In this document: piece after piece, positions 2,687 to 36,599 of the stretch
Position numbering within the stretch: position 1 is the first letter of the stretch
How the letters are laid out: every line of letters starts with the position of its first letter
Notes under the pieces: model-generated
What the model was told of the DNA's origin: nothing
Databases searched by the model: none
Seen by the model: the letters and a program-made list of their open reading frames with translations, nothing else
Assembly (NCBI GenBank): GCA_963757325.1
Contig: CAVWRF010000015.1
Coordinates: 9,010-73,009 of the forward strand
DNA from: Candidatus Melainabacteria bacterium
Lineage (GTDB): Bacteria; Actinomycetota; Actinomycetes; Mycobacteriales; Pseudonocardiaceae
Length of the DNA: 64,000 nt
Reading direction: 5' to 3'
Program-made: the position numbers and the translations under genes

Positions 2687-2694
2687 TCTATATT
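2687..2694 (+). promoter_or_regulatory. TCTATATT box, copy 1 (upstream of SARP-1)
   Basis: Exact 8-mer shared with copies at 6553-6560(-), 13080-13087(+) and 35419-35426(+). It has the same orientation as the downstream gene and contains a -10-like TATATT. Confidence 0.4.
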
Positions 2695-2935
2695 CGCTGG
2701 TCTGTCGCCTGACTTTCGGAACCCGTTGGTCGGCAAAGGGCCGCGCGGGCCAGCTTGACGCGTTCACACGATGGCTACTAGGCTAAACCAAAGTTACACA
2801 TTGATCGAACCAATGTGTCGACTGATAAAGAAACATATACGTCGGGGGCGACGGGCAGCAGGGGAACGGGCGAGAAAGGGCTGAACAGGTCCAATTGTGC
2901 CGCGTCCTCGTGGTGCGGCAGCGAGGGGATTCCAC

Positions 2936-3808
2936 ATGAGGCTGGCTTTACTGGGCCCGCTGTGCCTCACGCACAGCGGGTGTGAGGTCGTCATCAACTC
3001 GGGGCGGGCACGCACCGCGCTGGCGTTGCTGGGACTGAGTCCTGGTCGCACGGTGTCGTTCGACGAACTGATCAACGAGCTGTGGTCGGGCAGGCCGATC
3101 CGCGACGGGCGCAACGCACTGCACGCCACCATCGCACGACTGCGCAGGCTGCTGGTCTCGGTCGACGGAGGCAGGGACGTCATCCGGACCACCGGCGGTG
3201 GCTACGTGTTCGACCTGCTTGGCGGTTCGGTGGACGTGCAGCGGTTCGACTCGTTGTCCCGCGAGGGATCGGCACTGATCAAGCGGGAACCGCACCGGGC
3301 GATCGAGATGCTGCGCGAGGCGCTCGCGCTGTGGCGCGGGCCCGCGCTGGCCGACGTGGGCGACGGCGTGCGCTGCCGTGCGGCGGCGGCATACCTGGAC
3401 GAGCAGCGGCTCACCACCGAGGAGGACCTGTTGGCCTCCCGGCTGGCGATCGGGGAGGAGTGGCTGGCCACGGCGGAGCTGAAGCAGCTCGTCGGCGACC
3501 ATCCCGGCCGGGAACGGCTGAGCGAGTACCTGATGCTGGCGCTGTACCGCAGCGGCCGGCAGAGCGAGGCGGTGTCGGTCTTCCAGTGCACCTGCAACTG
3601 GTTGAGCAACGAGCTGGGTCTGCAACCGGGCAGGCCGCTGCAGGAGCTGTACCAGGCGATCCTGTTGCAGAGCCCGAGTCTGGACCACAGGGCCGATCCC
3701 AGATCGCTCGGTTCGGTCCGCGCGGCCGCTCCGGCCGCCGCCCGCGCGCATGTGCGCAACGGTGCGGATGCCCGGCTCGGCAGACCGGACGACCTGCGGG
3801 CCGGCTGA
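2936..3808 (+). CDS. SARP-family transcriptional activator (OmpR-type winged helix + BTAD)
   Basis: MRLALLGPLCLTHSG..ALLGLSPGRTVSFDELINELW..RLRRLL..GGGYVF, then a BTAD-like helical region (ALWRGPALADV...YLMLALYRSGRQSEA). GAGGGG lies 8 nt upstream of the ATG. Codon 5 is TTA. Confidence 0.85.
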   Translation: MRLALLGPLCLTHSGCEVVINSGRARTALALLGLSPGRTVSFDELINELWSGRPIRDGRNALHATIARLRRLLVSVDGGRDVIRTTGGGYVFDLLGGSVDVQRFDSLSREGSALIKREPHRAIEMLREALALWRGPALADVGDGVRCRAAAAYLDEQRLTTEEDLLASRLAIGEEWLATAELKQLVGDHPGRERLSEYLMLALYRSGRQSEAVSVFQCTCNWLSNELGLQPGRPLQELYQAILLQSPSLDHRADPRSLGSVRAAAPAAARAHVRNGADARLGRPDDLRAG

Positions 3809-3820
3809 CGATCCAACGGG

Positions 3821-5569
3821 TCAGGCCGGTCGGCCGGCCAGTTCCTCGACCAACCGGGCCACGGTGCGGCTGGTCATGACGTCGTGGACGGTGAACATCA
3901 GCCCGTGCCGGCGTGCCTCGTTCACCACGAGCGCCGCACCGAGGCTGGTGCCGCCGAGGGCGAAGAAGTCGTCGCCCGTGCCGACCGTGTCCTCCGTGCT
4001 GGAGAAGCGCGCGAACAGGTCGCACAGCAGTTGCTGCTCGGTCGTGCGCGGAGCTCGGAACCGCGCTCCGGTGCCGAATCTCGGTGCCGGCAGGGCGGCG
4101 GTGTCCAGCTTGCCGTTCGCGTTGAGCGGCAACGTGTCCAGCTCCACCCACACCGAGGGCACCATGTACTCCGGCAGGCTGGCCGCGGCGTGCTCGCGCA
4201 GCCACCGGTCACCGGACACGGCACCGTCGGCGACGACGACGTAGGCGAGGACATGCTGGTCCGACGCGACGACGGCGGCCTGCGCGATGTCCCTGTGGCA
4301 CAGCAGCACCGACCGGATCTCGCCCAGTTCGATCCGGTGACCGCGGATCTTGACCTGGTCGTCGGCGCGGCCGAGCATCACCAGCGCACCATCGGGCATG
4401 CGCCGGACGCGGTCGCCGGTGCGGTACATCCGGCTGCCCGGCGCCCCGTACGGATCGGCGACGAACCGCCCGGCGGTCAGGCCGGGACGCCGCAGGTAGC
4501 CGCGGGTCACCTGGCCACCGCCGATGTACAGTTCGCCCACCTCGCCGTCGGGCACCGGCCGCAGCCCCTCGTCCAGCACGTGCGGCACGGTCGTCCAGGT
4601 GGGACCGCCGATCGCGACCGGCCCGGGACCGACGTCGTCACCGGGGCGCACGAAGTGCACGCAGCAGCCGACGGTCGCCTCGGTCGGGCCGTACTCGTTG
4701 ACGACGGTGACGCCCGGGTTCGCGCGCCGGAACTCGGTGAGCACCTCCTCGGGCAGCACCTCACCGCCGACCACCAGATCCGTCGTCGGCGACGCGCTCG
4801 CCGGCAGGCCGGCCAGCAGCGGCAGGTGCGACGGTGTCGCCTTGAGCAGGGTGGGCGGCGTCGTCAGTTCGCCCAGCGCGGCGATCCGCACCCGGCCACC
4901 GGCCAACAGCGGTGCGTACAACGTCGTGACGGCCATGTCGAACGCGGTCGACGAATGCAGCACGGCCTCGCCGCGCACCCCCGGATAGTGCGCCAGGCAG
5001 TACGCCAGATAGACCGTCAGCGACCGGTGTTCCACCACGACGCCCTTGGGCACACCCGTGGAACCGGACGTGTAGATGACGTACGCGGGGTGTTCGGGCC
5101 GCAGCGGGGTCGTCCGGTCGGCGTCGGTCACGTCCGCCGTGGACGCGGCGGCGAGCGCGGTCTCCGTGTCCGGGTCGTCGGGCACGACCAGCGGCACGCC
5201 GAAACCTGCTGCCGCGTCCCGGTCGGCCGCCAGCGCGACGACCAGTGCGGGCCGCGCGTCGGCCATCATGTGCGCGATCCGCCCGCGCGGGTTGTCCAGT
5301 TCGACGGGCACGTACGCCGCGCCCGCCTTGAGCACCGCGAGGTACGCCACCAGCAGCTCGGCCGAACGGCGCATCAGCACGGCCACCAGGTTCTCCGGCC
5401 CCGCACCACGCGCGGCCAGCAGCCGCGCCAACCGGTTCACGGCCGCGTTCAGTTCGGCGTAGGTCAGCGTCGTCTCGTCGTCCGATACGGCGGGCGCGTC
5501 CGGGGTCGCGGCGACCTGCCGCTCGAACCATTCGGGCAGCAGGACCTGCGGGATGTCGGGGTCGTCCAC
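3821..5569 (-). CDS. Stand-alone NRPS adenylation-thiolation (A-T) didomain, Asn-type specificity code
   Basis: Motifs seen: [61 protein letters not shown], then the carrier motif FFALGGTSL. Start taken as GTG 5569, just after the upstream stop at 5599 (start uncertain). Extracted code is DMTKVGEVGK. Confidence 0.85.
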
Positions 5570-5598: not shown

Positions 5599-6450
5599 TC
5601 AGGCCGGCTCGCCCGCTGTCGCGGTGCCGAGCAGGTCCGACAGCGCGCGGGCGGTGCCGGTGTGCCGCAACAGGTCGTCGTGGCCGACGTCCAGCACGAC
5701 GTCGTGCCCCACGTCGACGGCCCTGCCGCCGGCCGAACGGATCGCCGTCGCGCGAGCCCACCTCGGCTCCGGGTCGTACAGCGTCGCCGCCGTCAGATAC
5801 CGCACCAGGGTGCCGAACACGCCCGCCAGTTCGTCGCGGACCTCGTTGTCCAGACCGATCCGCTCGGCGATGCCGCCCATCGTCGCCGTGAACACCTCGC
5901 CCAACTCCCGGCCGACGGCGATCAGGTCGTCACCGCGCTCGGCGCGCACCCGGTCGGCAGCCGCGTGGTAGCGGTCCAGCTCACCGGGCATCATCATCGC
6001 CGCCATCGAGTCGCCCGCGGCGTGGAAGTCGCGGTACAGACCTGTCGAGTTGGGCAGTTCCGGGTCGAACAGCACCAGGCGCGGCACGGCCAGTTCGGCC
6101 GCGATCCGGGCCGCGAGCACGGCGCCAGCGCAGTAGCCGACGACGGCGTTCACCTGCCTGCCCGACCGCCGCACCTCGGCCAGCCACCAGTCGACGTAGG
6201 CGTCCGGCGTGACGGTAACGGGCGGCGCCGCGGTCTCCCACACCGTCAGCGGTGGATCGAGCAGCCCGACCAGGTCGCGGAACGCCGCCGTCGTGCGTCC
6301 CGTGCTGTTGAAATCCACCGCGAGCACGACGTCCCGTCCCGGACCCTGCGCAAGCACGTGCCACGACTTCCCGGTCACAGCGAATACCCCTCCGTGCGAG
6401 TTTTCCGCCGCAACGGCGGCCGCGAAATGCAGACCGAGGCATAGGAACAA
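5599..6450 (-). CDS. Alpha/beta-hydrolase-fold protein with Gly-x-Cys-x-Gly nucleophile elbow (SyrC/CmaE-like aminoacyl shuttle candidate)
   Basis: [15 protein letters not shown] sits where type II thioesterases carry GHSxG. Downstream Asp (LFDPE) and His (DVGHDD) are triad candidates. It lies directly upstream of the A-T gene on the same strand. Start uncertain. Confidence 0.6.
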
Positions 6451-6927: not shown

Positions 6928-7731
6928 ATGGAATACCGAATCCTGGGGCCGGTCGAGGTGCGCCATGAGGGGCGGCCACTGCCGCTGTACGGCGCCAAAC
7001 AGCGCACCGTGCTGACCGCCCTGCTGATGGCCGGCGACCTGGTCGTCTACGACACACAACTCGGCGAGCACCTGTGGGGACAGAACGCGCCGATCACGAT
7101 GAACGCGCAGATCTACACCTATATCTCGCGGCTGCGGAAGGTGCTCGGCCCGCACGCGCGGATCACCCGACATTCGCCCGGCTACCTGATGCAGATCGGC
7201 CACTCCTGGTTCGATCTGCACGAGTTCACCGAGCAGTCGCAGCGCGGCCACGAGGCTCTGGCCGTCGGTGACTACGAGAAGGCCGCGACGCTGCTGTCCG
7301 CCGCGCTGTCGCTGTGGCGCGGACCGGCGCTCGCCGACGTGTCGTCACACCTGGCCGACGCGGTGCGCCCGCAGTTGGAGGAGGCCAGGATCACCGCGCT
7401 GACCGGCCGGATCGAGGCCGATCTCGCGCTGGGCAGGCACGTCGCGCTGGTGCCCAGGCTGACCCAACTGGTGCGTCAGTACCCGTTGCAGGAACGGTTC
7501 CGCGCGCAGTTGATGACGGCGCTGTACCGCTGCGACCGGCAGGCCGACGCGCTCGCGCTGTACGAGGAGGGCAGGCGGATGCTGGCCGGCGAACTGGGTG
7601 TCGACCCGGGCGCGTTGTTGCACGACGTGCTGCTCGCGATCCTCAACTCCGACCCGAAACTGCTCGGCCCCGCGCGGGAGCGCTCGCTGGCCGGCGTCGG
7701 GTGCTCACCGCTGCCGGGATTCCTCGCCTGA
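6928..7731 (+). CDS. SARP-family transcriptional activator (second copy)
   Basis: MEYRILGPVEVRHEGRPLPLYGAKQRTVLTALLM...YISRLRKVL..GYLM, then a BTAD region (LSLWRGPALADV...LMTALYRCDRQADAL). Confidence 0.85.
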   Translation: MEYRILGPVEVRHEGRPLPLYGAKQRTVLTALLMAGDLVVYDTQLGEHLWGQNAPITMNAQIYTYISRLRKVLGPHARITRHSPGYLMQIGHSWFDLHEFTEQSQRGHEALAVGDYEKAATLLSAALSLWRGPALADVSSHLADAVRPQLEEARITALTGRIEADLALGRHVALVPRLTQLVRQYPLQERFRAQLMTALYRCDRQADALALYEEGRRMLAGELGVDPGALLHDVLLAILNSDPKLLGPARERSLAGVGCSPLPGFLA

Positions 7732-7806: not shown

Positions 7807-8082
7807 ATGACCGCTTCACAACCGATGACCACGTTGAGCGACGGGGAACGCGCGCGCATCAAGGACGTGGTGTGCGAGGTGCTCGACGTCGAGCCCGGTG
7901 AGGTCACCCCGACCGGTTCGTTCACCGAGGACAACGGTGCCGACTCGATGTCGCTGGTGGCGCTGGGCGCGTCGCTGGAGCGCACCTTCGACATCGAGAT
8001 CGCGGACGACAAGGTGGACAGGATGAACAATCTGGAAGACGTGATCGCCGTGGTCGGCGAAGCACTCACGGCGAACCGCTGA
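7807..8082 (+). CDS. Acyl carrier protein
   Basis: 91 aa with the phosphopantetheine site DNGADSMSLVAL. GGAGG lies upstream. It is followed by KS genes. Confidence 0.8.
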   Translation: MTASQPMTTLSDGERARIKDVVCEVLDVEPGEVTPTGSFTEDNGADSMSLVALGASLERTFDIEIADDKVDRMNNLEDVIAVVGEALTANR

Positions 8083-8109: not shown

Positions 8110-9333
8110 GTGCACCAGGAAGGGGACGTTGAGAGAGTTGTGATCACCGGTTTGGGTGTGGTCAGCAGTATCGGTACCGGCGCCGACGACTTCTGTGCCG
8201 CGCTGCGCGAGGGGCGCAGCGGGGCGAAGCCGATCACGGCGTTCGACACCACCGGCTTTCCGCACTCGGTGGGCTGCGAGGTCACGGGGTTCGACCCGCG
8301 GCGGTGGCTGGAGCGGCTGGAGCCGCGGGTGACCGGCCACGCCACCAGGTTCGCCGCCGCGGCCGCCCGGATGGCGGTCGCGGACTGCGGGCTCGACGTC
8401 GAGGAACTGCGCCGTCGCCGGGTGCTGGTGTCCATCGGCACCAACGACGGCGAGGCACGAGACCTCGACACGCTCACGGAACGACACCTGGCAGGCGAGT
8501 CGTTCGACCCGGCGCTGGCCGCGCGGGCCGACACCAACCGGCTGGCCTCCGGGGTGGTCCGTGAATTGGAGCTGCGTGACGTGGAGACGATGACGATCGT
8601 CACCGCGTGCGCGGCGGGCAACTACGCGATCGGCAGCGCGTTCGACGCGATCCGGTCCGGTGACGTGGACATCGCGCTGTGTGGTGGCGCGGATGCCGTG
8701 TGCCGCAAGACGTTCAGCGGCTTCTACCGGTTCGGCACGATCGCGCCGGAGATGTGTCAACCGTTCGACAGGGACCGCAAGGGCCTGCTCACCAGCGAGG
8801 GCAGTGGGGTGCTCGTGCTGGAGAGCCTGCGATCGGCTCGGGCCCGCGGTGCCTCGATCCACGCCGAGGTGCTCGGTTACGGGCTCAACTGCGACGCCGG
8901 CCACGCCGTCGCTCCTGACCAGGACAACCTGGCCAGATGCATCCGGCTCGCACACCACAACGCCGGCATCCAGCCGGCGGACGTGGACCTCATCTCGGCG
9001 CACGGCACCGGCACACCGACCAACGACGTGGTCGAGTCCGGCGCGATCCGCCAGGTGTTCTCCGCCCCACCGCCCACGGTGTCGGTGAAGAGCATGATCG
9101 GGCACGCGATGGGGGCGGCGAGCGCGCTGGCCGCCGTCGCGTGCGTGCTGGCCATCCGGGAGGGCTTCATTCCGCCCACGATCAACCACGCGAACACCGA
9201 TCCGGCCTGCGGGCTGGACTGTGTGCCCAACAGGGCTCGGCAGGCGGAGCTGAACGTGGTGCAGAACAACGCCCTCGCGTTCGCGGGCAACAACGCGGTT
9301 CTGTTGCTCGGCAGACACCGGGAGACCGTATGA
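8110..9333 (+). CDS. Beta-ketoacyl-ACP synthase (KS-alpha type, catalytically complete)
   Basis: VVITGLGVVSSIG; active-site Cys in TACAAGNYAIG; His residues in SAHGTGTPTND and KSMIGHAMGAAS. GTG start. Confidence 0.9.
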   Translation: MHQEGDVERVVITGLGVVSSIGTGADDFCAALREGRSGAKPITAFDTTGFPHSVGCEVTGFDPRRWLERLEPRVTGHATRFAAAAARMAVADCGLDVEELRRRRVLVSIGTNDGEARDLDTLTERHLAGESFDPALAARADTNRLASGVVRELELRDVETMTIVTACAAGNYAIGSAFDAIRSGDVDIALCGGADAVCRKTFSGFYRFGTIAPEMCQPFDRDRKGLLTSEGSGVLVLESLRSARARGASIHAEVLGYGLNCDAGHAVAPDQDNLARCIRLAHHNAGIQPADVDLISAHGTGTPTNDVVESGAIRQVFSAPPPTVSVKSMIGHAMGAASALAAVACVLAIREGFIPPTINHANTDPACGLDCVPNRARQAELNVVQNNALAFAGNNAVLLLGRHRETV

Positions 9334-10448
9334 CAATGGTGGAGGTACCCGGCCCGGCACGTGCGGGCCGGGCGGTGTCGGACACCCGGACGCTGGTGTT
9401 GTCCGGGTGGTCCGCGGTGACCGCCTACGGGATGGGTCGCGACTCGCTGCGGGAGGGCGTGCTGTCCGGCAGGTCGGCGATCGTCGACGTCGACCGGGAC
9501 GGGGCAGCGGGCACGTCCGACCGGGTGGCCGCCGTGCCCGGGTTCAACGCGGCGGATCACTTGGGGCGCAAGGGAACCCGCACGATGGGCCGATCGGTGG
9601 CATTCGCCGTCACCGCGATCGACCAGTTGCTGCGGGAACTGGGCCCCGACGTCACGGCCGATCCGGAGCGGATCGGGCTGGTGCTCGGCGTCGGCCAGGG
9701 CAACGTGCAGGTCGCGATGGAGTTCACCCGCGGCGCGCTGACCGCGACCAGGCCGTACCAGGTGGACGCCATCCGGTTCCCGGACACGTTCCTCAACCGG
9801 GCGGCGGGGCACAGCGCGATCTGGCACCGTCTCAAGGGGCCGAACACGACCATCGCGGGCGGCAGGCTGTCCGCGTTGCTTGCGCTGAGCTACGCGACGC
9901 GGCTGCACGACAACGGACACTGTCCCCGGCTGCTGGTCGGTGCCACCGAGGAGTACTCGGCGGCACGCGCGATGCTGGCCGACGCGACGGGCGTCTCGCC
10001 GGAACTGGGCGAGGGCAGCGTCGTGGCCCTGCTGGAGTCGGCCACCGACGCGGCCGACGCGGGCCGTACCCCGGTGGCCACCGTGCTGGCGACGCACTTC
10101 CGGGCCTGCCCGGAGCCGGCAGCCGGTGCCCTCGAACTGGCGGCGTGTGTCGGTGCGGTGCTCACCAAGGCCGGTGCCACGGCCGACCGGATCCGGCTGG
10201 TCGCGCCGCTGGACCTGTATCCGGAGCACGAGGCGGCAGGCATCCACGAGGTGATCGGCCACGCCCGGCCGCACTGGCTGCACTGCCGTCCGCTGCTGGG
10301 CGACGCGTTCGGCGCGTCGGCGGCCCTGCAGCTCGGGGCCGCGCTGGCCGTCGGGCAGTACTGGCCGGACCCCGGTGACCTGGCTCTGGTCACCGGCATC
10401 GAGCAGGACGGCACCGTCGGCGCCGCACTGCTCGGGCGTCCCGTTTGA
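9330..10448 (+). CDS. KS-beta / chain-length-factor-like protein (no active-site Cys)
   Basis: ATGA overlap with the KS stop. KS fold (GMGRDSL...GRKGTRTMGRS...), but TIAGGRLSAL replaces the Cys motif. Confidence 0.8.
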   Translation: MTMVEVPGPARAGRAVSDTRTLVLSGWSAVTAYGMGRDSLREGVLSGRSAIVDVDRDGAAGTSDRVAAVPGFNAADHLGRKGTRTMGRSVAFAVTAIDQLLRELGPDVTADPERIGLVLGVGQGNVQVAMEFTRGALTATRPYQVDAIRFPDTFLNRAAGHSAIWHRLKGPNTTIAGGRLSALLALSYATRLHDNGHCPRLLVGATEEYSAARAMLADATGVSPELGEGSVVALLESATDAADAGRTPVATVLATHFRACPEPAAGALELAACVGAVLTKAGATADRIRLVAPLDLYPEHEAAGIHEVIGHARPHWLHCRPLLGDAFGASAALQLGAALAVGQYWPDPGDLALVTGIEQDGTVGAALLGRPV

Positions 10449-10762
10449 CCGGGACGCACCACCTGGTCCGCGAGGTCTCGATCTCACCGGACGAACCGCT
10501 GTTCGCCGGGCACTACCCGGGTTTCCCGGTGGTGCCCGGCATGTTCGTGCTGGAACTGGTGCACAGGGCGGTCTGCGCCGAGCGCGGCATCGCCGGTGTG
10601 CCGGTTTCCGTTGTGCGGGCGCAGTTCCACCGGCCGGTGCGGCCGGGGGAGTCGCTGCGGATCGTGGTGAACTCGGTGGGTGGGGACGTGGTGGCGAAGG
10701 TGGACGTGGGCGGCGAGCCGGCGGCCGAGTTGAGGCTGCGGTATCCGGAGGTCGCGTCGTGA
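10445..10762 (+). CDS. Hotdog-fold (FabZ/FabA-like) dehydratase subunit carrying the His motif
   Basis: TTGA overlap with the upstream stop. LFAGHYPGFPVVPGMFVLELV matches the FabZ F.GHFP..PV.PG motif. Short, 105 aa. Confidence 0.7.
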   Translation: MTGTHHLVREVSISPDEPLFAGHYPGFPVVPGMFVLELVHRAVCAERGIAGVPVSVVRAQFHRPVRPGESLRIVVNSVGGDVVAKVDVGGEPAAELRLRYPEVAS

Positions 10763-14247: not shown

Positions 14248-14262
14248 GCGCCGGGGGACGAG

Positions 14263-21270: not shown

Positions 21271-21442
21271 GCTGTCGCTGTCGCCGCTGCAGAAGGGCAT
21301 GCTGTTCCACGCGGGCATGCACAAGGACGAACTGGACGTCTACCACGTCCAGGTGCTCGCCGACCTGACCGGCCCGCTGGACGCGGGCCGGCTGCGTGCC
21401 GCGGCGGCCGCGCTGCTGGACCGGCACGTGAACCTGCGCGGG
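19847..21442 (+). CDS. NRPS-2, fragment a: degenerate E-like domain (E*) plus the N-terminal part of C2; frame breaks near 21440
   Basis: GTGA overlap with the NRPS-1 stop. E-like fold with [14 protein letters not shown] and VELAAPHAG in place of HHxxxDG and EGHGRE, then [18 protein letters not shown] and [11 protein letters not shown]...[10 protein letters not shown]. Confidence 0.8.
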
Positions 21443-21443
21443 C

Positions 21444-30077: not shown

Positions 30078-30079
30078 CG

Positions 30080-31338
30080 ACCGACCCGACCCGGCTGCGC
30101 GCACAGTTGGCCGAATGGCTGCCGGAGTACCTGCGGCCCGCCACGCTGACCGTGCTGGACGCGTGGCCGCTGACGCCCAACGGCAAGGTGGACCGGTCGA
30201 AGCTGCCGGTGCCGGACACGGCCGGCACCGACCAGCGTGCGCCGGAAACCGTGCTGGAGGAACTGCTCTGCGGCGTGTTCGCCGACGCGCTCGGCCTGCG
30301 CGAGGTCGGCGTGCTGGACGACTTCTTCGAACTGGGCGGACACTCGCTGCTCGCGCCGGGATTGATCGGGCGCGCCGTGCGGGCCGGGCTGCGACTGGAC
30401 ATCGCCGACCTGTTCACCCACCGCACTGCAGCCGGCCTGGCCGCGGTCGCGGGCCGGCGGCAGGCGCCCGAACAGGCCGCGGCGTGGCGGGGCGAGGCGA
30501 TGGGCAGGGTGTTCGACGACGCGGCGGGCATCGGCGAACTGGATCCGGTGGCACCCGTGCTGCCGATCCGGCCGGACGGCGATCTCGCGCCGTTGTTCTT
30601 CGTGCACAGCGGTGTCGGGTTCGCACTGCCCTACATCGGTCTCGCCAGGCACCTGGAATCCGGCCACCCGGTGTACGGCCTGCAGTCGCCCGCACTGTCC
30701 GGCGATGGCAGGCTGCCCGACAGCGTCGCCGAACTGGCCGACGGGTACCTGGCCCGCATCCGCGAGATCCAGCCGGCCGGCCCGTACCACCTGTTCGGCT
30801 GGTCGTTCGGCGGCCTCGTGGTGCACGAACTCGCCGTCCGGCTGCGGGAGGCGGGCGAGAACGTCGCGCTGGTGGTCAACATGGACGGCTATCCCGAGCA
30901 CGACCAGCCCGCCGATCCGCGCACCGAGTCGGAGATGCTGGCCGGCGTCCTGGAAGTGATCGGGCACGACAGGGCCGGGTTCGAGGGCCGCGAACTCACC
31001 CGGACGACGTGCTCGCCGTGCTGCGTGAGGACGATCATCCGCTGCTCGCGCTGGGCGAGGACAGGGTGCGCCGCATCCTGGCGCTGTCCGACCGGCACGG
31101 GACGCTGGTGCGGCGGTTCACACCCCGGCACTACGACGGCGAACTGCACCTGGTGGTCGCCACGGCCGAACGTGAGGACGCGGCTGAAGCCGCGCTGGTC
31201 GACCGCTGGCGGCCGTTCGTCGGGCGGCTGACCCGGCACGGTCTCGACGTCGGGCACGAGTACCTGATGCACCCGGAGCCGCAGGCATGGCTGGCGGCGC
31301 TGATCGACGAACTGCTCAAGGGCGGCGCGGCCCGATGA
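30080..31338 (+). CDS. NRPS-2, fragment c: end of A4 - T4 - TE (a further frame break near 31000)
   Basis: [39 protein letters not shown], then T4 FFELGGHSL and [11 protein letters not shown]...FGWSFGG. After about 31000 the TE continues in another frame ([15 protein letters not shown]...HLVVAT...GHEYLM) to TGA 31338. Confidence 0.85.
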
Positions 31339-31372: not shown

Positions 31373-32191
31373 ATGACCGCGCAGATCGCGGTGCCCCGGC
31401 AGAACCCGGTGGCACCGGCCGTGATCGAGATCGGGACCGTGGCCGGCAGGCGGCTGCGCAGGCTGCGCCGCGCGCCGGGGCGGCTGGTCGGGATCATCAT
31501 GAACCCGATCATCGTGCTGGTGGCGTTCGGCTACCTGCTCGGCGGTTCGATGACGGCGCCCGGCGACACGAACTACGCCGAGTACATCTTCGCCGGTGGC
31601 CTGATGCAGGTCGGCCTGGCCGGCATCACCCCGACGGCCGTCGCCGTCGCGCTGGACCTGCGCAGCGGCCTGGTGGACCGGCTGCGGTCACTGCCGATCG
31701 CGCGGGCCACGGTCCTGATCGGCAACTCGCTCGGCGACCTGGCGATGGGCGTGATCGGCATCGCCGTCGTCACGCTCGCCGGCTTGGTGCTGGGCTGGCG
31801 GCCGCACGCGGCGCCGCTGTCGGTGCTGGCCGGTTTCGGTGTGGCCGCGGTGTTCGTCTACGCCATGATCTGGGTCGGCATGATGCTCGGCCTGCTGTGG
31901 CACAACCTGGAGACCATCGAGTCGGTCGGCGGCCTGCTCGCGGTGCTGTTCTCGTTCCTGTCCACCGGTTTCATCTCACCGGACAAGATGCCGGCGCTGG
32001 TCCGGCCGATCGCCGAGTGGAACCCGGTCAGCGCCGTCGTCACCGTGGTGCGGCAACTGTGGGGCAACCCGCAGCACATCGACGGGTTCGCCGCCACCAA
32101 CTCCACCCTCGTCGTCGTGGTGTCCATCGCCGCGGTCCTGCTGATCACCGGCGCGATCAGCATCCGGCGCTACCGCACCAGTTCGCGCTGA
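31373..32191 (+). CDS. ABC-2-type transporter permease (DrrB-like)
   Basis: 272 aa with six hydrophobic segments. RLRRLRRAPGRLVGIIMNPIIVLVAFGYL is typical of the ABC-2 family. AGGGAG lies upstream. Confidence 0.8.
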   Translation: MTAQIAVPRQNPVAPAVIEIGTVAGRRLRRLRRAPGRLVGIIMNPIIVLVAFGYLLGGSMTAPGDTNYAEYIFAGGLMQVGLAGITPTAVAVALDLRSGLVDRLRSLPIARATVLIGNSLGDLAMGVIGIAVVTLAGLVLGWRPHAAPLSVLAGFGVAAVFVYAMIWVGMMLGLLWHNLETIESVGGLLAVLFSFLSTGFISPDKMPALVRPIAEWNPVSAVVTVVRQLWGNPQHIDGFAATNSTLVVVVSIAAVLLITGAISIRRYRTSSR

Positions 32192-32250: not shown

Positions 32251-33480
32251 ATGACAGCGGAACCGGTCAGCACACCGGCCGGTCCGCGGGTACCGGATCT
32301 GGCCGATCCGCGCACGTTCGTCGACGAGGACGTGCGGACGATGTGGCGGCGGCTGCGGGCCGAGGCACCGGTGTACTGGAACCCGGCCACCGACGACCGG
32401 CCCGGTTTCTGGTCCGTGACGCGCTACGCGGACGTGCTCGCGGTCTACAAGGACAACACGCGGTTCACGTCGGAGAAGGGCAACGTGCTCTCCACGCTGC
32501 TGCGGGGCGGCGACTCGGCGGGCGGCAAGATGCTCGCCGTCACCGACGGCCCACGGCACCGCGAGACGCGCAAGCTGATGCTGAAGTCGTTCTCGCCGCG
32601 CGTACTGGAGCACATCGGCCAGCTTGTGCGCAGGCGCACCCGGCGGCTGGTCGCGGAGGTGGTGGCGCGCGGCGAGGCGGACTTCGCCACCGACGTCGCC
32701 GACCACATCCCGATCAACACCATCGGCGACCTGATGGACATCCCGGTCGCCGACCGGGGCAAGCTCGTCGACTGGAACAACCGCACGCTGTCGCGCTACG
32801 ACGAGGGCGACTCGCAGCTTGAGGAGTGGCTGGCGCGCAACGAGATCCTGCTGTACTTCGGTGAACTGGCCGCCCGGCGCCGCGCGGCGCCGGGCGAGGA
32901 CGTGATCAGCGCTCTGGCCACCGGCCTGGTCGGCGGTGAGCCGCTGTCCGAGGACGAGATCGTCTTCAACTGCTACAGCCTGGTGCTGGGTGCGGACGAG
33001 TCCAGCCGGATGTCGTCGATCGGCGCGGTGATCGCGTTCACCGAGCACCCCGACCAGTGGCGGGCGCTGAAGGACGGCGAGGTCGGTGTCGCGGACGCCA
33101 CGGAGGAGGTACTGCGCTGGACCACGCCGGCCATGCACTTCGGTCGGCGGGCGCTGGAGGACGTGCCACTGGGCGGCCGGGTGATCAGGGCAGGCGACGT
33201 GGTCGCGCTGTGGAACAGTTCGGCCAACTTCGACGAGGACGCGTTCGACGACCCGGACCGGTTCGACCTGGGCCGCAAACCCAACCGGCACGTCGCGTTC
33301 GGCCACGGCCCGCATTTCTGTATCGGCGCGTTTCTCGGTCGCTCCCACGTTTCCGCCGTGCTGGAGGCATTGCGCGACCAGGTCGCCGAAATCGAGCTGC
33401 GCGGTGAGCCGCGGCGCCTGTATTCCAATTTCGTGCACGGTTATCGCGGCCTGCCGGTCGCATTCACCCCGGAACGTTGA
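32251..33480 (+). CDS. Cytochrome P450
   Basis: 409 aa from ATG 32251. I-helix [15 protein letters not shown] (ExxR) and the heme loop [14 protein letters not shown]. Confidence 0.9.
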
Positions 33481-33505
33481 CAGCGCGCACAGGAGGAGTG
33501 GGACA

Positions 33506-33721
33506 TTGAGCAGCAACCCGTTCGACGACGAGAACGGCACCTTCCTGGTGCTGACCAACCCGGACGAGCAGTACTCGCTGTGGCCGTCGTTCGCGCAGCT
33601 CCCGGACGGCTGGACCGTGGTGCGTGAGCCGGGCACCAGGGCCGAGGCGCTGGAGTACGTGGAGACGCACTGGACCGACATGCGGCCCAGGTCGCTGCGG
33701 GATCGCGCGGCACGGCTGTGA
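33506..33721 (+). CDS. MbtH-like protein
   Basis: [38 protein letters not shown] carries the three MbtH Trp positions. TTG start follows AGGAGGAG. Confidence 0.85.
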
Positions 33722-34684
33722 CGCGCGCGATCTGGGCCGAGGGCCTCGTCCGGCGCTATGCCGGGGTGACCGCGCTGGCCGGCATCGATCTCGACGTGCC
33801 GGCGGGCACCGTGCTGGGCCTGCTCGGCCCGAACGGCGCCGGCAAGACGACGGCGGTGCGCATCCTGTCCACGCTGCTGGCACCCAGCGGCGGGCGCGCC
33901 GAGGTGGCCGGCTACGACGTGGCGAAGAGAACCCGCGCGGGTCCGGCGGCGGATCGGGCTGGCCGGCCAGTACGCGGCGGTCGACGAGCTGCTCACCGGG
34001 CGGGAGAACCTGGTGATGTTCGGCAGGCTGCTGCATCTGAGCCGCTCGGCCGCGCGGGCGCGGGCCAGCGAGCTGCTGGAGCGGTTCGAGCTGACCGGCG
34101 CGGCGGACCGGTCCGCCGGCACGTACTCCGGCGGCATGCGCAGGCGGCTGGACCTGGCTAGCTGTCTCGTCGGGTCGCCGGAGGTGCTGTTCCTGGACGA
34201 GCCGACGGTCGGGCTGGACCCGGCCAGCCGGATCGTGCTGTGGACGACGGTGCGCGGCCTGGTCGAGGACGGCATGACGGTGCTGCTGACCACGCAGTAC
34301 CTGGACGAGGCCGACTGGCTGGCCGACGAGATCGTGGTGATCGAGGCGGGCCGGGTGATCGCGGCCGGCTCACCGGAGGAGCTCAAGCGCAAGGTCGGTG
34401 AGGACCGGCTGGAGGTGGCGCTGGTCGCGGCCGGTGCCGACCAGATCGCGTCGGCGACGTCGGCCGCTGTGCGCGCGCTCACCCCGATCGCGCTGGCGAC
34501 GCCCACTGTGGACGGTACGACGGGGCGGGTTTCGGTGCAGCTCAACGACGGGGCGCAGGGCGTCGGCGCGGCGGCTGTCGCGCTGCGCGACGCGGGTGTC
34601 CACGTGGCCGACTTCGTGCTGCGCAGGCCCACGCTGGACGACGTGTTCCTCAACCTGGTCGGCCACTCGGCCGACAACCACTGA
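33718..34684 (+). CDS. ABC transporter ATP-binding protein (DrrA-like), frame break near 33928
   Basis: GTGA overlap with the mbtH-like stop. Walker [10 protein letters not shown], then the frame changes: [28 protein letters not shown] reads in the frame of ORF 34013..34684. That ORF carries YSGGMRRRL and LFLDEPT. Confidence 0.8.
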
Positions 34685-34687
34685 AAA

Positions 34688-34723: not shown

Positions 34724-34747
34724 CCTTCCTCGCACAGGATGGTCTGC

Positions 34748-35317
34748 TCAGGGTGTCGGTGCCATGAGCTGGCTGGTGGCCAGGGTGTGGTGGCCGTTGG
34801 TCTCGTGCTCGGGCCACGCGCCGTAGCGGCGGCGGCCGTACAGCAGCGCGGGCCGCTCGTCGTGTGTCCGGAAGCGGTAGATCTCGCCGAACACCACGAC
34901 GTGGTCGCCCACGTGCTCGGTGTGCGCGACCCGGCAGTCGGCGATCGCGTGCGCGTAGTCGGCCAGGTGCGGGCCGCCCGCGTCGTCGGCCAGGTGCCAG
35001 CGGATGCGGTCGAAGCGGTCCGGGTCGCCGGAGGCGAACAGTTCGGCCACCGGCTGACCCTCGACGTGCAGGATGTTGACGGTGAACCGGTTGCGCTCCA
35101 GCACCGAGTCCAGGGTGGGGCTGCCGTGCCGCAGGCAGACCAGCAGGGTCGGCGGCAGCGGCGTCACGCTGCACACCGAGGAACAGGTCATGCCGCGGGG
35201 GGCGCCGTCGGAGTCCACGGTCGTGACGACCGCGACGCCGCTGGGAAACTGCGCCATCAGCTCGCGGAAACCGCTCTGTGGCACGGATGTCGACGGCTCG
35301 GACGGGTCCTGGGCCAT
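34748..35317 (-). CDS. Flavin reductase (HpaC/flavin_reduct domain), likely partner of the halogenase
   Basis: FRELMAQFPSGVAVVTT..DGAPRGMTCSSVCSVTPLPPTLLVCL is typical of NAD(P)H-flavin reductases. Confidence 0.85.
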   Translation of the reverse strand: MAQDPSEPSTSVPQSGFRELMAQFPSGVAVVTTVDSDGAPRGMTCSSVCSVTPLPPTLLVCLRHGSPTLDSVLERNRFTVNILHVEGQPVAELFASGDPDRFDRIRWHLADDAGGPHLADYAHAIADCRVAHTEHVGDHVVVFGEIYRFRTHDERPALLYGRRRYGAWPEHETNGHHTLATSQLMAPTP

Positions 35318-35418
35318 CGGCCCTCACCACCTCGGCTCGCGGGAGCGGTGACCGGGGTACCCGGACACCGCGCGTGCCGCAACGGTATCTCCGCCTGCCG
35401 GTGGTCCCGTAGCGCATT

Positions 35419-35426
35419 TCTATATT
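35419..35426 (+). promoter_or_regulatory. TCTATATT box, copy 4 (upstream of the O-methyltransferase)
   Basis: Exact 8-mer about 150 nt upstream of GTG 35577, in the divergent reductase/OMT intergenic region. Confidence 0.4.
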
Positions 35427-35576
35427 TTTCAATGCAGGCGGCGTTCCATTCTCTGGTCCGACCGGACGGCCTTGGTTCTCGCTGTTCACGAATACCCGGG
35501 CCGGTTGTACGATCGAATCATTTCCGGTGCCTCATCGCATCCGATCGAGGCGAGTCAATTACTCGGAGGATTCCCC

Positions 35577-36599
35577 GTGAGCGATGTGAGTAGTGTCCGG
35601 GTGCGCGAGACCATGTACGCGGGCTGGCTGAGCGCCGCCGTCTACAGCGCCGCACGGCTGGGCGTGGCCGACCACCTGGCCGACGGCGTGAGCGACATCG
35701 ACGAACTGGCCAAGCGGACCGACACGCACGCGGAGTCGCTGTACCGGCTGATGCGCGCGCTGGCCGGCGCGGGCTACTTCCGTGAGGAGGACGGCAGGCG
35801 GTTCGTGACGACGCCGCTGGCCGAGTATCTGCGCTCGGACACCGAGGACTCGGTGAAGGACCTCGTGCTGTTCTACGGCCAGGAGGTCTACCGGGCCTAC
35901 GGCGCGCTGTCCGAGGCCGTGCGCACCGGCGAGCGCGCGTTCGACATCGAGTACGGCATGCCGCTGTGGGACTACCTGAACACGGTGCCGGCCACCGGTG
36001 ACGCGTTCCGCAAGGGTATGGGCGCGGCGACCTGGAACGAGCAGTTGCCGCTGCCGCGGACCTACGACTTCACCGGCGTCGGCACGCTGGTCGACGTCGG
36101 CGGTGGTACGGGCTCGATGCTGGCCGCCGTCCTGCACGAGCACCCCGGGATGCGGGGGGTGCTGGTGGAGATCCCGGCGGGGATCGACCGCACGATGCGC
36201 CACTTCGTGGCCGCGGGCGTGGCCGAGCGGGTGGAGCTGTGCGAGGGCAGCGCGTTCGACGTACTGCCCGAGGGCGACTGCTACCTGATCAGCTGCGTGC
36301 TGCACGCGATGGACGACGAGCAGAGTGTCCGCGCGCTGCGCCGGATGCGCGATTCGGTGCGGCCGGGTGGCCGGGTGGTCATCCTGGAGCGGATCGTGCC
36401 GGACGGCAACGAACCCGGCCTGGCCAGGATGCTGGATCTGACGATGATGTTGATGAACGGCGGCAAGGAGCGCACCGAGCGGCAGTGGCGGACCCTGCTC
36501 GCGGCGGGCGGCTTCCGGTTCACGCGTGCGGTGCGTATGCCGTATTTCAGCGGCGGCGCGGAGTTGTACGCCATCGAGGGTGTACCGGCGGCGGACTGA
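35577..36599 (+). CDS. SAM-dependent O-methyltransferase (family 2, with dimerisation domain)
   Basis: GTG 35577 follows GGAGGA. N-terminal winged-helix dimerisation region (VADHLADGVSDIDELAK) and the SAM motif LVDVGGGTGSMLAAVL. Confidence 0.85.
   Translation: MSDVSSVRVRETMYAGWLSAAVYSAARLGVADHLADGVSDIDELAKRTDTHAESLYRLMRALAGAGYFREEDGRRFVTTPLAEYLRSDTEDSVKDLVLFYGQEVYRAYGALSEAVRTGERAFDIEYGMPLWDYLNTVPATGDAFRKGMGAATWNEQLPLPRTYDFTGVGTLVDVGGGTGSMLAAVLHEHPGMRGVLVEIPAGIDRTMRHFVAAGVAERVELCEGSAFDVLPEGDCYLISCVLHAMDDEQSVRALRRMRDSVRPGGRVVILERIVPDGNEPGLARMLDLTMMLMNGGKERTERQWRTLLAAGGFRFTRAVRMPYFSGGAELYAIEGVPAAD

What the first reader, a model, noticed from the sequence alone, without database searches (positions are those of the whole stretch)
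2687..36599. Complete-looking hybrid cluster: type II PKS-like acyl-chain factory plus a 4-module NRPS with Dap, halogenase, P450 and OMT (predicted halogenated N-acyl lipotetrapeptide)
Seen in sequence: two SARP regulators; ACP/KS/CLF-like/two hotdog dehydratases; an NRPS that opens with a starter-type C domain and ends in a TE; an SbnA/SbnB pair; a Trp-type halogenase with a flavin reductase; a P450; an MbtH-like protein; an OMT; and a DrrAB-like exporter. Genes are tightly packed, with 4-nt start/stop overlaps in several places. Collinear reading gives acyl - D-Xaa1 (code DIWELTADDK) - Xaa2 (DAWAVAGLAK, aromatic-like) - residue 3 loaded in trans (Asn-type) - Xaa4 (DMLQVGVVWK, close to the Gly code DILQLGLIWK) - TE release. 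A KS/CLF/DH acyl-chain set joined to a starter C domain is the logic known from cinnamoyl/polyene lipopeptides such as skyllamycin and WS9326A. This short 4-module layout with a Dap cassette and a Trp-type halogenase is not one I can assign to a known product.
Basis: partly seen in the sequence, partly recalled or inferred. Interest (0 to 1): 0.8.

Follow-up and report, generated by a model that had tools for sequence, protein, structure and literature searches.

The report
Uncharacterised chlorinated acyl-tetrapeptide gene cluster
This is a real actinomycete gene cluster for a small fatty-acylated, probably chlorinated four-residue peptide with no product I could find, and its main curiosity is that an enzyme type known for ring-closing "Dieckmann" chemistry sits where an amino-acid shuttle is needed.

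Summary
Three things were missed.

- **Broken reading frames.** The large NRPS gene (19847-31338) reads through only after three frame changes (~21440, ~30080, ~30998), and the DrrA-like ATPase needs one (~33915). Similar breaks occur in unrelated genes at 52-57 kb, and two metagenomic orthologues carry an intact 3915-3929 aa gene. The breaks are therefore most likely sequencing indels, not decay.
- **Inactive adenylation domain.** Module 3 is C-A*-T; A* lacks core motifs A3, A5 and A7 and the A10 lysine.
- **An unrecognised gene.** Gene 5599-6378(-), beside the stand-alone Asn-type A-T gene, is an NcmC/TrdC-type "Dieckmann cyclase" (E=6e-40, model TM 0.87, Cys-Asp-His conserved). The same trio occurs in the bripiodionen tetramate pathway. 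Here it serves an internal module with no beta-keto donor, so I infer a T-to-T aminoacyl shuttle.

Other assignments:
- KS/CLF are closest to the ishigamide polyene system; no cinnamoyl cyclase or in-cluster ketoreductase was found.
- The P450 is a close P450sky homologue.
- SbnA and SbnB pass NCBIfam equivalog cut-offs.
- The halogenase is ThaL/RebH-like.

No known product matched, but MIBiG could not be queried. I rate it a new variant of a known kind, of moderate interest.

The parts
2897..3808 (+). SARP regulator 1 (start 2897 or 2936)
   Evidence: Pfam Trans_reg_C + BTAD, E=3.7e-40. 80% identical orthologue at the same position in L003/L086.
3821..5569 (-). Stand-alone A-T didomain, Asn-type code DMTKVGEVGK
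   Evidence: Pfam AMP-binding, AMP-binding_C, PP-binding. Code by motif anchoring. Orthologues 73-80% in L003/L005. Relatives at 52-67% always lie next to an NcmC-type gene.
5599..6378 (-). NcmC/TrdC-type 'Dieckmann cyclase' homologue; proposed aminoacyl shuttle
   Evidence: No Pfam or NCBIfam hit. phmmer to NcmC 6e6t, E=6.4e-40, with the catalytic Cys aligned. Cys83, Asp105 and His233 invariant or nearly so in 23 homologues. AF2 model pLDDT 91.8; Foldseek top hit NcmC, TM 0.87.
6928..7731 (+). SARP regulator 2
   Evidence: Pfam BTAD E=2.4e-44 + Trans_reg_C.
7825..8082 (+). Acyl carrier protein
   Evidence: Pfam PP-binding; DSM serine motif.
8110..9333 (+). Ketosynthase (active-site Cys and two His present)
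   Evidence: Pfam ketoacyl-synt N+C. Below the FabF equivalog cut-off. Motifs TACAAG, HGTGT and GHAMG.
9330..10448 (+). CLF-like partner, no active-site Cys, Iga12-like
   Evidence: Best PDB hit 6kxd_B at E=2.6e-53, against about 1e-16 for FabF. Exact 372-aa protein P0001.
10445..11202 (+). Two small hotdog dehydratase subunits (10445-10762 and 10759-11202)
   Evidence: Pfam FabA; ApeI-like and FabA on the identical Logan contig, ApeI-like and ApeP-like on the orthologues in L003/L086; weak FabZ matches.
11256..12860 (-). Flavin-dependent tryptophan halogenase, ThaL/RebH clade
   Evidence: Pfam Trp_halogenase E=1e-148. GGGTAGW motif. PDB: Trp 6-halogenases 823 bits, RebH 799 bits.
13213..14247 (+). 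SbnB (Dap biosynthesis)
   Evidence: TIGR03944 equivalog, 412 bits against cut-off 327.
14263..15255 (+). SbnA (Dap biosynthesis)
   Evidence: TIGR03945 equivalog, 388 bits against cut-off 350.
15276..19850 (+). NRPS-A: starter-type C, A (DIWELTADDK), T, E
   Evidence: Pfam. The C domain is most like the N-terminal C of MxcG and EntF. EGHGRE motif. Orthologues of 1527 and 1532 aa.
19847..31338 (+). NRPS-B: E*(inactive)-C-A(DAWAVAGLAK)-T-C-A*(dead)-T-C-A(DMLQVGVVWK)-T-TE. Frame changes near 21440, 30080 and 30998.
   Evidence: Frame plots and translations. Pfam on segments. A* lacks A3, A5 and A7, and A10 Lys is Met. E* has HE in place of HH and is conserved in L087. Orthologues are single ORFs of 3929 and 3915 aa.
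31373..32191 (+). ABC-2 (DrrB-like) permease
   Evidence: Pfam ABC2_membrane.
32251..33480 (+). P450sky-type cytochrome P450
   Evidence: PDB 4l0e/4pxh, E=1e-157, aligned end to end from Met1.
33506..33721 (+). MbtH-like protein
   Evidence: Pfam MbtH E=9e-25.
33718..34684 (+). DrrA-like ABC ATPase; frame change near 33915
   Evidence: Frames.
34748..35317 (-). Flavin reductase (halogenase partner)
   Evidence: Pfam Flavin_Reduct E=4e-35.
35577..36599 (+). SAM-dependent O-methyltransferase of the aromatic-OH type (start uncertain, 35472-35601)
   Evidence: Pfam Dimerisation + Methyltransf_2. Best PDB hits 6c5b, AlpH, CalO6 and MmcR.

Best explanation
The region is one biosynthetic gene cluster for an N-acylated tetrapeptide.

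Proposed pathway:
1. ACP, KS, the Cys-less CLF partner and a two-subunit hotdog dehydratase build an unsaturated, probably linear polyene acyl-ACP. A ketoreductase must be borrowed from elsewhere (inferred).
2. The starter-type C domain of NRPS-A joins this chain to residue 1. Residue 1 is a short diamino acid, most likely Dap made by SbnA/SbnB. It is epimerised to D by the E domain.
3. NRPS-B docks through an inactive second E-type domain. Its DCL-type C2 adds an aromatic residue, most likely tryptophan. The ThaL/RebH-like halogenase and its flavin reductase chlorinate free Trp at C6 or C7.
4. The A domain of module 3 is dead. The separate A-T protein (Asn-type code, probably MbtH-dependent) activates Asn on its own carrier domain. 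The adjacent NcmC-type Cys-Asp-His enzyme takes the aminoacyl group onto its cysteine and passes it to the carrier domain of module 3.
5. Module 4 adds a Gly-like residue. The TE then releases the product, possibly by lactam closure onto the Dap beta-amine (guess).
6. The P450sky-type enzyme hydroxylates a carrier-bound residue at the beta-carbon. The O-methyltransferase caps a hydroxyl. The DrrAB-type pump exports the product, and two SARPs switch the cluster on.

Shown: gene families, domain order, catalytic motifs, codes, and conservation of the layout.
Inferred: substrates, the shuttle role, the targets of the P450 and OMT, and the mode of release.

The four frame breaks are most likely sequencing errors.
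For: - Domain and family assignments.
- Codes and motif loss in A*.
- C2 begins [11 protein letters not shown] and follows an E domain.
- CLF is closest to Iga12.
- The P450 aligns with P450sky from end to end.
- The halogenase is closest to ThaL and RebH.
- SbnA and SbnB exceed their equivalog cut-offs.
- g5 has the NcmC fold and triad.
- Gene order SARP, A-T, NcmC-like, SARP, ACP, KS, CLF, DH, DH, halogenase, SbnB, SbnA, NRPS-A, NRPS-B is identical in a 177-kb ENA contig. It is nearly so in a JGI contig. NRPS-B is intact there at 3929 and 3915 aa.
- Outside its own orthologues, every closest relative of g5 (45-60% identity) lies directly beside an A-T gene 52-67% identical to g4. Each also has an A-less or A-dead C-(A*)-T module, and no stand-alone type II thioesterase in the 10-kb flanks of the loci read gene by gene (L028, L167-L169).
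- In bripiodionen biosynthesis the same trio exists. Both carrier domains are essential, the in-line A domain is naturally dead, and no shuttle enzyme was found (PMC10956176).
- Shuttling from A-T didomains to A-less modules by alpha/beta-hydrolase-fold enzymes is established for SyrC, WS5/WS20 and LgnA (PMC8748450, PMC12532209, PMC13464078).
- Frame breaks of the same kind occur in unrelated genes at 52-57 kb.
Against: - g5 keeps every residue implicated in Dieckmann catalysis, including the Tyr (Tyr194), and the four-helix lid thought to hold a polyketide tail. Sequence alone therefore does not separate a shuttle from a cyclase.
- No biochemical evidence exists for shuttle activity in this family.
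- The A domain of g4 could load module 3 directly, with no shuttle.
- No ketoreductase lies in the cluster, so chain length and saturation of the acyl group are unknown.
- The Dap assignment for DIWELTADDK rests on acidic pocket residues plus the presence of SbnA/SbnB. Dab is not excluded, and the JGI orthologue lacks SbnB.
- The sequence as given does not encode an intact NRPS-B or ATPase.
- MIBiG could not be searched.
Confidence: 0.6

Rival explanations
1. The NcmC-type enzyme does genuine Dieckmann chemistry here. A beta-ketoacyl chain from the KS/CLF/ACP set is joined to Asn on the stand-alone A-T protein and cyclised to an Asn-derived 3-acyl tetramic acid. This would be either a second product or part of a non-collinear assembly.
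For: The closest relatives of g4 and g5 lie in type I PKS-NRPS clusters of the bripiodionen kind (PMC10956176). g5 retains the full catalytic set and the lid. No ketoreductase lies in the cluster, so a beta-keto chain is conceivable. An OMT of the same family sits beside the trio in L167 and L169.
Against: There is no free C domain to join acyl-ACP to Asn on g4. The only C domains lie in cis in NRPS-A and NRPS-B. Module 3 has a dead A domain, and g4 is the only free A domain that could serve it. The starter C of NRPS-A needs an acyl donor, and the KS/CLF/ACP set is the only candidate. C3 has an ordinary peptide-donor N-terminal motif and follows T2 in the same polypeptide.
Confidence: 0.15
2. 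The A domain of g4 charges the module-3 carrier domain directly in trans. g5 is only an editing or rescue hydrolase for stalled carrier domains, or it acts on the lipid ACP, as the NcmC-type gene in the WS9326A cluster might.
For: Trans-acting A domains are known. An NcmC-type gene (41% to g5) also sits among the lipid genes of the S. calvus WS9326A cluster, not next to an A-T gene.
Against: g4 keeps its own intact carrier domain. In bripiodionen the carrier domain of the A-T protein is essential (PMC10956176). The g5/A-T adjacency is conserved across many genera.
Confidence: 0.2
3. The cluster is a decaying pseudogene cluster, and the frame breaks in NRPS-B and the ATPase are real.
For: Four frame changes lie within 13 kb. 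A search with the N-terminal 531 aa of NRPS-B did not return this protein itself, which is consistent with the gene having no annotated product.
Against: Equal or higher density of breaks occurs in unrelated genes at 52-57 kb: an acyltransferase, a lipoprotein and an OmpR-type regulator. After repair there are no in-frame stops or large deletions. Third-position GC stays at 0.92-0.93 throughout. Orthologues are intact.
Confidence: 0.12

Closest known systems
Skyllamycin and WS9326A cinnamoyl lipopeptide clusters (Streptomyces)
   Same: Type II PKS-like KS/CLF/ACP/hotdog set feeding a starter C domain. P450sky-type P450 (close homologue). MbtH. In WS9326A, a stand-alone Asn A-T didomain (WS23/Cal23) serves a module without a working A domain (PMC7539972, PMC8748450).
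   Different: Only four modules. No cinnamoyl cyclase or isomerase genes. Dap cassette and Trp halogenase present. The in-line A domain is a dead remnant rather than absent. No TEII-like WS5/WS20 shuttle; an NcmC-type enzyme sits beside the A-T gene instead.
Bripiodionen (bpd) tetramate pathway: BpdC (C-A*-T), BpdD (A-T, Asn), BpdE (TrdC/NcmC-type Dieckmann cyclase)
   Same: The same three-part unit: a dead in-line A domain, an Asn-type A-T didomain, and an adjacent NcmC-type enzyme with a Cys-Asp-His triad (PMC10956176).
   Different: In bpd the unit is the last module after a type I PKS and releases a tetramic acid. Here it is module 3 of 4 in a pure NRPS, with a peptide donor, a following module and a TE.
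Ishigamide highly reducing type II PKS (Iga10-Iga16)
   Same: The CLF-like partner is closest to the Iga12 structure 6kxd_B. The KS/CLF/ACP/DH logic matches that for a polyene chain.
   Different: No in-cluster ketoreductase. The chain goes to an NRPS starter C domain, not to an amide synthase.
[quoted passage not shown]
   Same: A small acylated tetrapeptide containing D-Dap, an aromatic residue and Gly. SbnB-like gene and SARP in the cluster (PMC11204786).
   Different: Their acyl unit comes from a KSIII, an ATP-grasp enzyme and a decarboxylase. None of these is present here, and they have no halogenase.
SyrB1/SyrC (syringomycin) and other aminoacyl shuttles
   Same: A stand-alone A-T protein plus an alpha/beta-hydrolase-fold enzyme with a GxCxG cysteine, moving an aminoacyl group to a module that cannot load itself. 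(The GxCxG detail for SyrC is from my own knowledge; SyrC is cited in PMC8748450.)
   Different: g5 shows no detectable sequence relation to SyrC-type proteins in my searches. It belongs to the NcmC family.

Membership tests
TrdC/NcmC-type Dieckmann cyclases | Alpha/beta-hydrolase core plus four-helix lid | tested here: met
   AF2 model pLDDT 91.8 with helices 111-124, 133-148, 152-173 and 178-198. Foldseek top hit NcmC, TM 0.87, rmsd 2.2; next hits are FAS TE at TM 0.58.
TrdC/NcmC-type Dieckmann cyclases | Cys-Asp-His triad (Cys in GxCxG) | tested here: met
   Cys83 aligns with the residue mutated in the NcmC C89S entry 6e6u. Cys83 and Asp105 are invariant and His233 nearly invariant in 23 homologues.
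TrdC/NcmC-type Dieckmann cyclases | Acts on a beta-ketoacyl-aminoacyl thioester made by a PKS module directly upstream of the amino-acid module | tested here: not met
   The served module is internal (C3-A*-T3). It follows T2 of an amino-acid module and precedes C4-A4-T4-TE. No PKS module exists in the assembly line.
TrdC/NcmC-type Dieckmann cyclases | Dieckmann cyclisation activity | not testable with these tools
   Needs an enzyme assay with N-acetoacetyl-aminoacyl thioester mimics.
Highly reducing type II PKS (Iga-type) | KS with Cys-His-His, plus a Cys-less CLF partner related to Iga12, plus a discrete ACP | tested here: met
   Motifs. CLF to 6kxd_B at E=2.6e-53. ACP.
Highly reducing type II PKS (Iga-type) | Dedicated ketoreductase and dehydratase in the cluster | tested here: inconclusive
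   Two hotdog dehydratase subunits are present. No SDR lies within 2.9-36.6 kb; the nearest is at 44569-45339 in a catabolic-looking operon.
Cinnamoyl-containing lipopeptide clusters | Cinnamoyl cyclase/isomerase genes in addition to KS/CLF/DH | tested here: not met
   All ORFs between 2.9 and 36.6 kb are assigned to other families. No extra KS, isomerase or cyclase is present.
SbnA/SbnB 2,3-diaminopropionate pathway | Both proteins reach the NCBIfam equivalog cut-offs | tested here: met
   TIGR03945 388 bits (cut-off 350) and TIGR03944 412 bits (cut-off 327).
Flavin-dependent tryptophan halogenases (free-Trp type) | GxGxxG and WxWxIP motifs, close similarity to characterised Trp 6- or 7-halogenases, and a partner flavin reductase | tested here: met
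   Regiochemistry (C6 or C7) is not resolved: 823 against 799 bits.
A-T didomain plus TEII-like shuttle systems (WS9326A, legonmycin, rotihibin, aglomycin) | Stand-alone A-T didomain and an acceptor module without a working A domain | tested here: met
   g4. A* lacks A3, A5 and A7, and A10 Lys is Met.
A-T didomain plus TEII-like shuttle systems (WS9326A, legonmycin, rotihibin, aglomycin) | Stand-alone type II thioesterase-like (PF00975) shuttle gene | tested here: not met
   PF00975 is found only as the C-terminal TE domain of NRPS-B. g5 matches no Pfam family.
Enamidonin/autucedine cluster | KSIII, ATP-grasp enzyme and decarboxylase for the acyl-dehydro-beta-alanine unit | tested here: not met
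   None is present in the window. Gene list of the ole cluster.

The most novel reading that the evidence does not exclude
In this cluster, NcmC/TrdC-type 'Dieckmann cyclases' found next to Asn-type A-T didomain genes are (also) carrier-to-carrier aminoacyl shuttles, and by extension the same holds in the bripiodionen-like tetramate clusters. The enzyme would take Asn from the stand-alone carrier domain onto its cysteine and hand it to a module whose own A domain is dead or absent. This would be a new activity for the family. It would supply the missing transfer step noted in the bripiodionen study. This cluster is the natural case where that role is separated from chain release.
Probability: 0.4. 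Interest if true: 0.65.

Novelty: new variant of a known kind. Interest (0 to 1): 0.5.

Why it matters
It is a compact target for genome mining: about 34 kb, with two SARP switches. It should give a chlorinated, Dap-containing acyl-tetrapeptide of a type I could not find described. I found the whole layout in only two or three metagenomic contigs. No GTDB species representative found by scanning for the NcmC-type gene showed it; those loci cover only the left half of the cluster.

Mechanistically, it places an NcmC-type enzyme where Dieckmann chemistry has no substrate. Whether this enzyme family can shuttle aminoacyl groups between carrier domains therefore becomes directly testable. The question was left open for bripiodionen.

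The conserved inactive second E-type domain at a subunit junction is also unexplained.

Tried and rejected
- **Enamidonin/autucedine identity.** Rejected: its acyl-unit genes (KSIII, ATP-grasp, decarboxylase) are absent.
- **Nonopeptin (5-Cl-Trp, Dap, OH-Asn heptapeptide) and rotihibin.** Read and rejected on module number and gene content.
- **Cyclocinamide-like scaffold.** Recalled from memory only; the paper read did not give the structure. Not used.
- **Full-text search for the four adenylation codes.** No paper found.
- **Further literature searches** combining halogenase, Dap, lipopeptide and type II PKS found nothing that matches.
- **Genome scan with g5 alone.** Found nothing.
- **Genome scan with an alignment of g5 homologues.** Gave 80 loci. 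None had KS/CLF, halogenase, SbnA/SbnB or NRPS-A at orthologue-level identity (best 36%) within 10 kb of the NcmC-type gene.
- **Metagenome scan with module 4.** Gave only distant NRPSs at 26-44%.
- **Protein search with the 2891-aa NRPS-B ORF.** Timed out.
- **Protein search with the N-terminal 531 aa of NRPS-B.** Returned no orthologue, so I could not read the downstream half of the orthologous clusters.
- **Is g5 a WS5/WS20 equivalent?** The S. calvus locus shows its NcmC-type gene is a different gene from the TEII-like cal5.
- **Plasmid search.** Found only a related halogenase/SbnAB/KS-CLF cassette, not this cluster.

Full report
**Sequence and gene calling.** The window is 71% G+C, so raw ORF lists are useless. 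I called genes from third-position G+C and checked the calls with a six-frame Viterbi segmentation. Between 2.9 and 36.6 kb this gives about 20 genes. All were then assigned by Pfam, NCBIfam or comparison with solved structures.

**Check of the observation.**
- Two SARPs: 2897-3808 and 6928-7731.
- ACP, KS, CLF-like protein and two hotdog proteins: 7825-11202.
- A Trp halogenase on the opposite strand: 11256-12860.
- SbnB and SbnA: 13213-15255.
- NRPS genes: 15276-31338.
- ABC-2 permease, P450, MbtH, DrrA-like ATPase, flavin reductase and O-methyltransferase: 31373-36599.

SbnB and SbnA exceed the NCBIfam equivalog cut-offs (412 against 327 bits; 388 against 350 bits). Four-base start/stop overlaps occur at KS/CLF, CLF/DH1, DH1/DH2, NRPS-A/NRPS-B and MbtH/ATPase. 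For the stand-alone A-T protein the automatic alignment slipped at position 278. Anchoring on the LLKATPS motif gives DMTKVGEVGK, which is 9 of 10 to the Asn code DATKVGEVGK as I recall it.

NRPS-B is not one ORF in this sequence. The coding frame changes near 21440 (inside C2), near 30080 (between A9 and A10 of module 4) and near 30998 (inside the TE). The DrrA-like ATPase changes frame near 33915. After joining the frames the protein is 3831 aa with no internal stop.

I asked whether this is decay or poor sequence, and three lines of evidence point to poor sequence.
- The Viterbi pass found the same kind of break outside the cluster. An acyltransferase-3-like gene at 51989-53193 is read in three frames. 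A small lipoprotein-like gene near 53177-53660 is broken. An OmpR-type response regulator at 57255-56388(-) has its receiver and DNA-binding domains in different frames.
- Third-position G+C stays at 0.92-0.93 along NRPS-B.
- Two orthologous clusters carry an intact single gene of 3929 and 3915 aa.

Indel errors in a draft assembly are therefore the best reading. Real pseudogenisation gets about 0.12.

- NRPS-A is C-A-T-E. Its C domain is most like the N-terminal, acyl/aryl-accepting C domains of MxcG and EntF.
- NRPS-B starts with GTG at 19847, overlapping the stop of NRPS-A. It opens with a second E-type domain, not with a C domain. Its best PDB relatives are the E domains of PvdL, TycA and GrsA, and it is 35% identical to the E domain of NRPS-A.
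- In this second E domain the catalytic second His of HHxxxD is Glu, and the EGHGRE motif is deleted. The JGI orthologue has Gln at that position and is 74% identical overall. It is therefore a conserved, inactive domain at the subunit junction, and its role is unknown.
- Then come a DCL-type C2 ([11 protein letters not shown]), A2-T2, C3-A*-T3 and C4-A4-T4-TE.
- A* gives only fragmentary AMP-binding matches. It lacks A3, A5 and A7. Asp235 is Asn, and the A10 Lys is Met. It cannot adenylate, so module 3 must be loaded in trans. The only free A domain is the Asn-type A-T protein at 3821-5569(-).

The gene beside that A-T gene (5599-6378, minus strand) has no Pfam or NCBIfam match.
- It hits the solved Dieckmann cyclase NcmC at E=6.4e-40. 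Its GYCAG cysteine aligns with the residue changed in the NcmC C89S entry.
- In an alignment of 23 homologues, Cys83 and Asp105 are invariant and His233 nearly so.
- An AlphaFold model (pLDDT 91.8) has the alpha/beta core plus a four-helix lid. It superposes on NcmC at TM 0.87, and the next hits are FAS thioesterases at TM 0.58.
- The family is small: 195 representatives at E<=1e-10 among 1.8 billion proteins.

**Is the trio an accident of this genome?** No.
- A 177-kb ENA metagenome contig has exactly the same order. The genes run SARP, A-T, NcmC-type, SARP, ACP, KS, CLF, DH, DH, halogenase, SbnB, SbnA, NRPS-A, NRPS-B, at 61-92% protein identity.
- A JGI contig has nearly the same order but lacks SbnB and has a different gene in place of the two hotdog genes.
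- Beyond these, the nearest relatives of g5 (45-60% identity) in Streptomyces, Micromonospora, Saccharothrix and metagenomes all lie directly next to an A-T gene 52-67% identical to g4. Next in line is a C-T or C-A*-T gene, and in the metagenomic loci a type I PKS follows.

This is the arrangement published for bripiodionen. BpdC is C-A*-T with a naturally inactive A domain. BpdD is an A-T didomain with an Asn code, 52% identical to WS23. BpdE is a TrdC/NcmC-type Dieckmann cyclase. Both carrier domains are essential, and the authors found neither a TEII nor a SyrC-like shuttle (PMC10956176).

**Inference on mechanism.** In tetramate pathways the NcmC-type enzyme takes a beta-ketoacyl-aminoacyl chain onto its cysteine and closes the ring. 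Here the served module is number 3 of 4. Its C domain follows the carrier domain of an amino-acid module in the same polypeptide, and it is followed by another module and a TE. No beta-keto donor exists at that point. The defining substrate requirement for a Dieckmann cyclase is therefore not met, although fold and triad are.

A dead-A module with a stand-alone A-T partner does need a way to move the aminoacyl group. That is the job of SyrC, WS5/WS20, LgnA and their kind (PMC8748450, PMC12532209, PMC13464078). No PF00975-type stand-alone thioesterase lies in this cluster. I therefore propose that g5 shuttles Asn from the g4 carrier domain to T3 through an Asn-S-Cys83 intermediate.

This is an inference, at about 0.4 on its own. 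There are two rivals. One is true tetramate formation on g4 with a chain from KS/CLF (0.15); it fails for want of a free C domain. The other is direct trans loading with g5 as an editing enzyme (0.2). An NcmC-type gene also sits among the lipid genes of the S. calvus WS9326A cluster, separate from the TEII-like cal5. The family may therefore have more than one role in type II PKS/NRPS hybrids.

**The other parts.**
- **Acyl chain.** The CLF-like protein is far closer to Iga12 of the ishigamide highly reducing type II PKS (6kxd_B, E=2.6e-53) than to FabF (about 1e-16). The KS keeps Cys-His-His and the CLF has no Cys. No cyclase, isomerase or extra KS is left unassigned. A linear unsaturated chain is thus more likely than a cinnamoyl group. 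No ketoreductase lies in the cluster; the nearest SDR is in a catabolic-looking operon at 44.6 kb.
- **P450.** It aligns with P450sky (4l0e/4pxh) from Met1 to the end at E=1e-157. P450sky hydroxylates carrier-bound amino acids at the beta-carbon (my knowledge of those entries). The target here is unknown; Asn on g4 or T3, or Trp on T2, are candidates.
- **Halogenase.** It is closest to ThaL-type 6-halogenases (823 bits) and RebH (799 bits). It should therefore act on free Trp at C6 or C7.
- **O-methyltransferase.** It belongs with the aromatic-hydroxyl methyltransferases 6c5b, CalO6 and MmcR. Its substrate is unknown.
- **Residue 1.** The code DIWELTADDK has acidic residues at positions 278, 330 and 331, which fits a short cationic side chain. 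With SbnA/SbnB present I assign Dap, but Dab is not excluded.

**Cluster limits.** The left limit is the first SARP, which is conserved in the ENA orthologue. A cation:proton antiporter just outside (593-1729) recurs next to or inside related clusters and may belong. To the right of the OMT come a small membrane protein, a 'Sensor' protein, an ABC/FtsX pair and then a catabolic-looking operon. I could not read the right half of the orthologous clusters, so the right limit is not confirmed by synteny.

**Is it known?**
- I could not query MIBiG.
- Eight full-text searches and ten papers gave no product with this gene set.
- Enamidonin/autucedine is the nearest small Dap lipotetrapeptide, but it uses a different acyl machinery.
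- The best plasmid match is a related but A-domain-free cassette on several Streptomyces sp. NBC_ linear plasmids.
- None of the 80 GTDB loci found through the NcmC-type gene, which span about 10 kb either side of it, shows the KS/CLF, halogenase, SbnA/SbnB or NRPS-A genes at orthologue level.

**Verdict.** This is a new variant of a known kind: a lipopeptide NRPS primed by a type II PKS-like set, with a trans-loaded module. Interest is moderate (0.5). It rests mainly on the NcmC-type enzyme in a context that separates a possible shuttle role from chain release, and on the rarity of the cluster.

Noticed in passing
window 51989-53193 (+), ~53177-53660 (-), 57255-56388 (-): Three genes outside the cluster are split across reading frames: an acyltransferase-3-like gene, a small lipoprotein-like gene and an OmpR-type response regulator. 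The density matches that inside the cluster, which points to indel errors throughout the assembly.
   Followed up: partly
window 19847-21280 (+); L087 16522-18000: NRPS-B begins with a second E-type domain. Its catalytic His is Glu (Gln in the orthologue), and in the window its EGHGRE motif is deleted. It directly follows the active E domain that ends NRPS-A. It is conserved at 74% identity, and its function is unknown; docking or enzyme recruitment are possibilities.
   Followed up: partly
L170 (NZ_CP107961.1 286275-303186) and about nine other Streptomyces sp. NBC_ linear plasmids: A compact cassette with no adenylation domain. It runs SbnB, anthranilate synthase I/II, TrpD, antiporter, flavin reductase, Trp halogenase, SbnA, ACP, KS, CLF, FabG, DsbA, stand-alone C domain and FAD monooxygenase. 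Identities to the window are halogenase 64%, SbnB 70% and KS 66%. The product is unknown.
   Followed up: partly
window 593-1729 (-); L087 43-474; L170 24925-26265: A cation:proton antiporter lies beside or inside three related clusters (about 40% identity). It may be a conserved accessory of this cluster family rather than a neighbour.
   Followed up: no
L036 10007-10780 (S. calvus, WS9326A cluster): An NcmC-type gene (E=5.5e-57 to NcmC, 41% to g5) sits between the P450 and the hotdog genes, at the position of cal14. It is distinct from the TEII-like cal5. I found no assigned role for it in the papers read.
   Followed up: partly
L167, L168, L169, L028 (loci around g5 relatives): A recurring cassette runs amidase, NcmC-type gene, Asn-type A-T, then C-T or C-A*-T. 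In the three metagenomic loci L167-L169 a large gene follows, a type I PKS in L167 and L169, and L167 and L169 also carry an O-methyltransferase; no PKS or OMT is seen in the flanks of L028. The amidase next to an Asn-loading unit is unexplained.
   Followed up: no
window 41824-47982 (+): An operon of IclR regulator, luciferase-like monooxygenase, BKACE, SDR, Fe-alcohol dehydrogenase and aldehyde dehydrogenase. It looks catabolic and unrelated to the cluster, but it holds the nearest SDR that could serve as the missing ketoreductase.
   Followed up: no
L001/L002 (Streptomyces sp., GCA_040640975.1 and GCA_044386595.1): The same SARP-ACP-KS-CLF block (72-83% identity) is joined to a TauD gene and a different NRPS that starts with an A domain. 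It has no hotdog genes, A-T gene or NcmC-type gene. The lipid cassette therefore moves between assembly lines.
   Followed up: no
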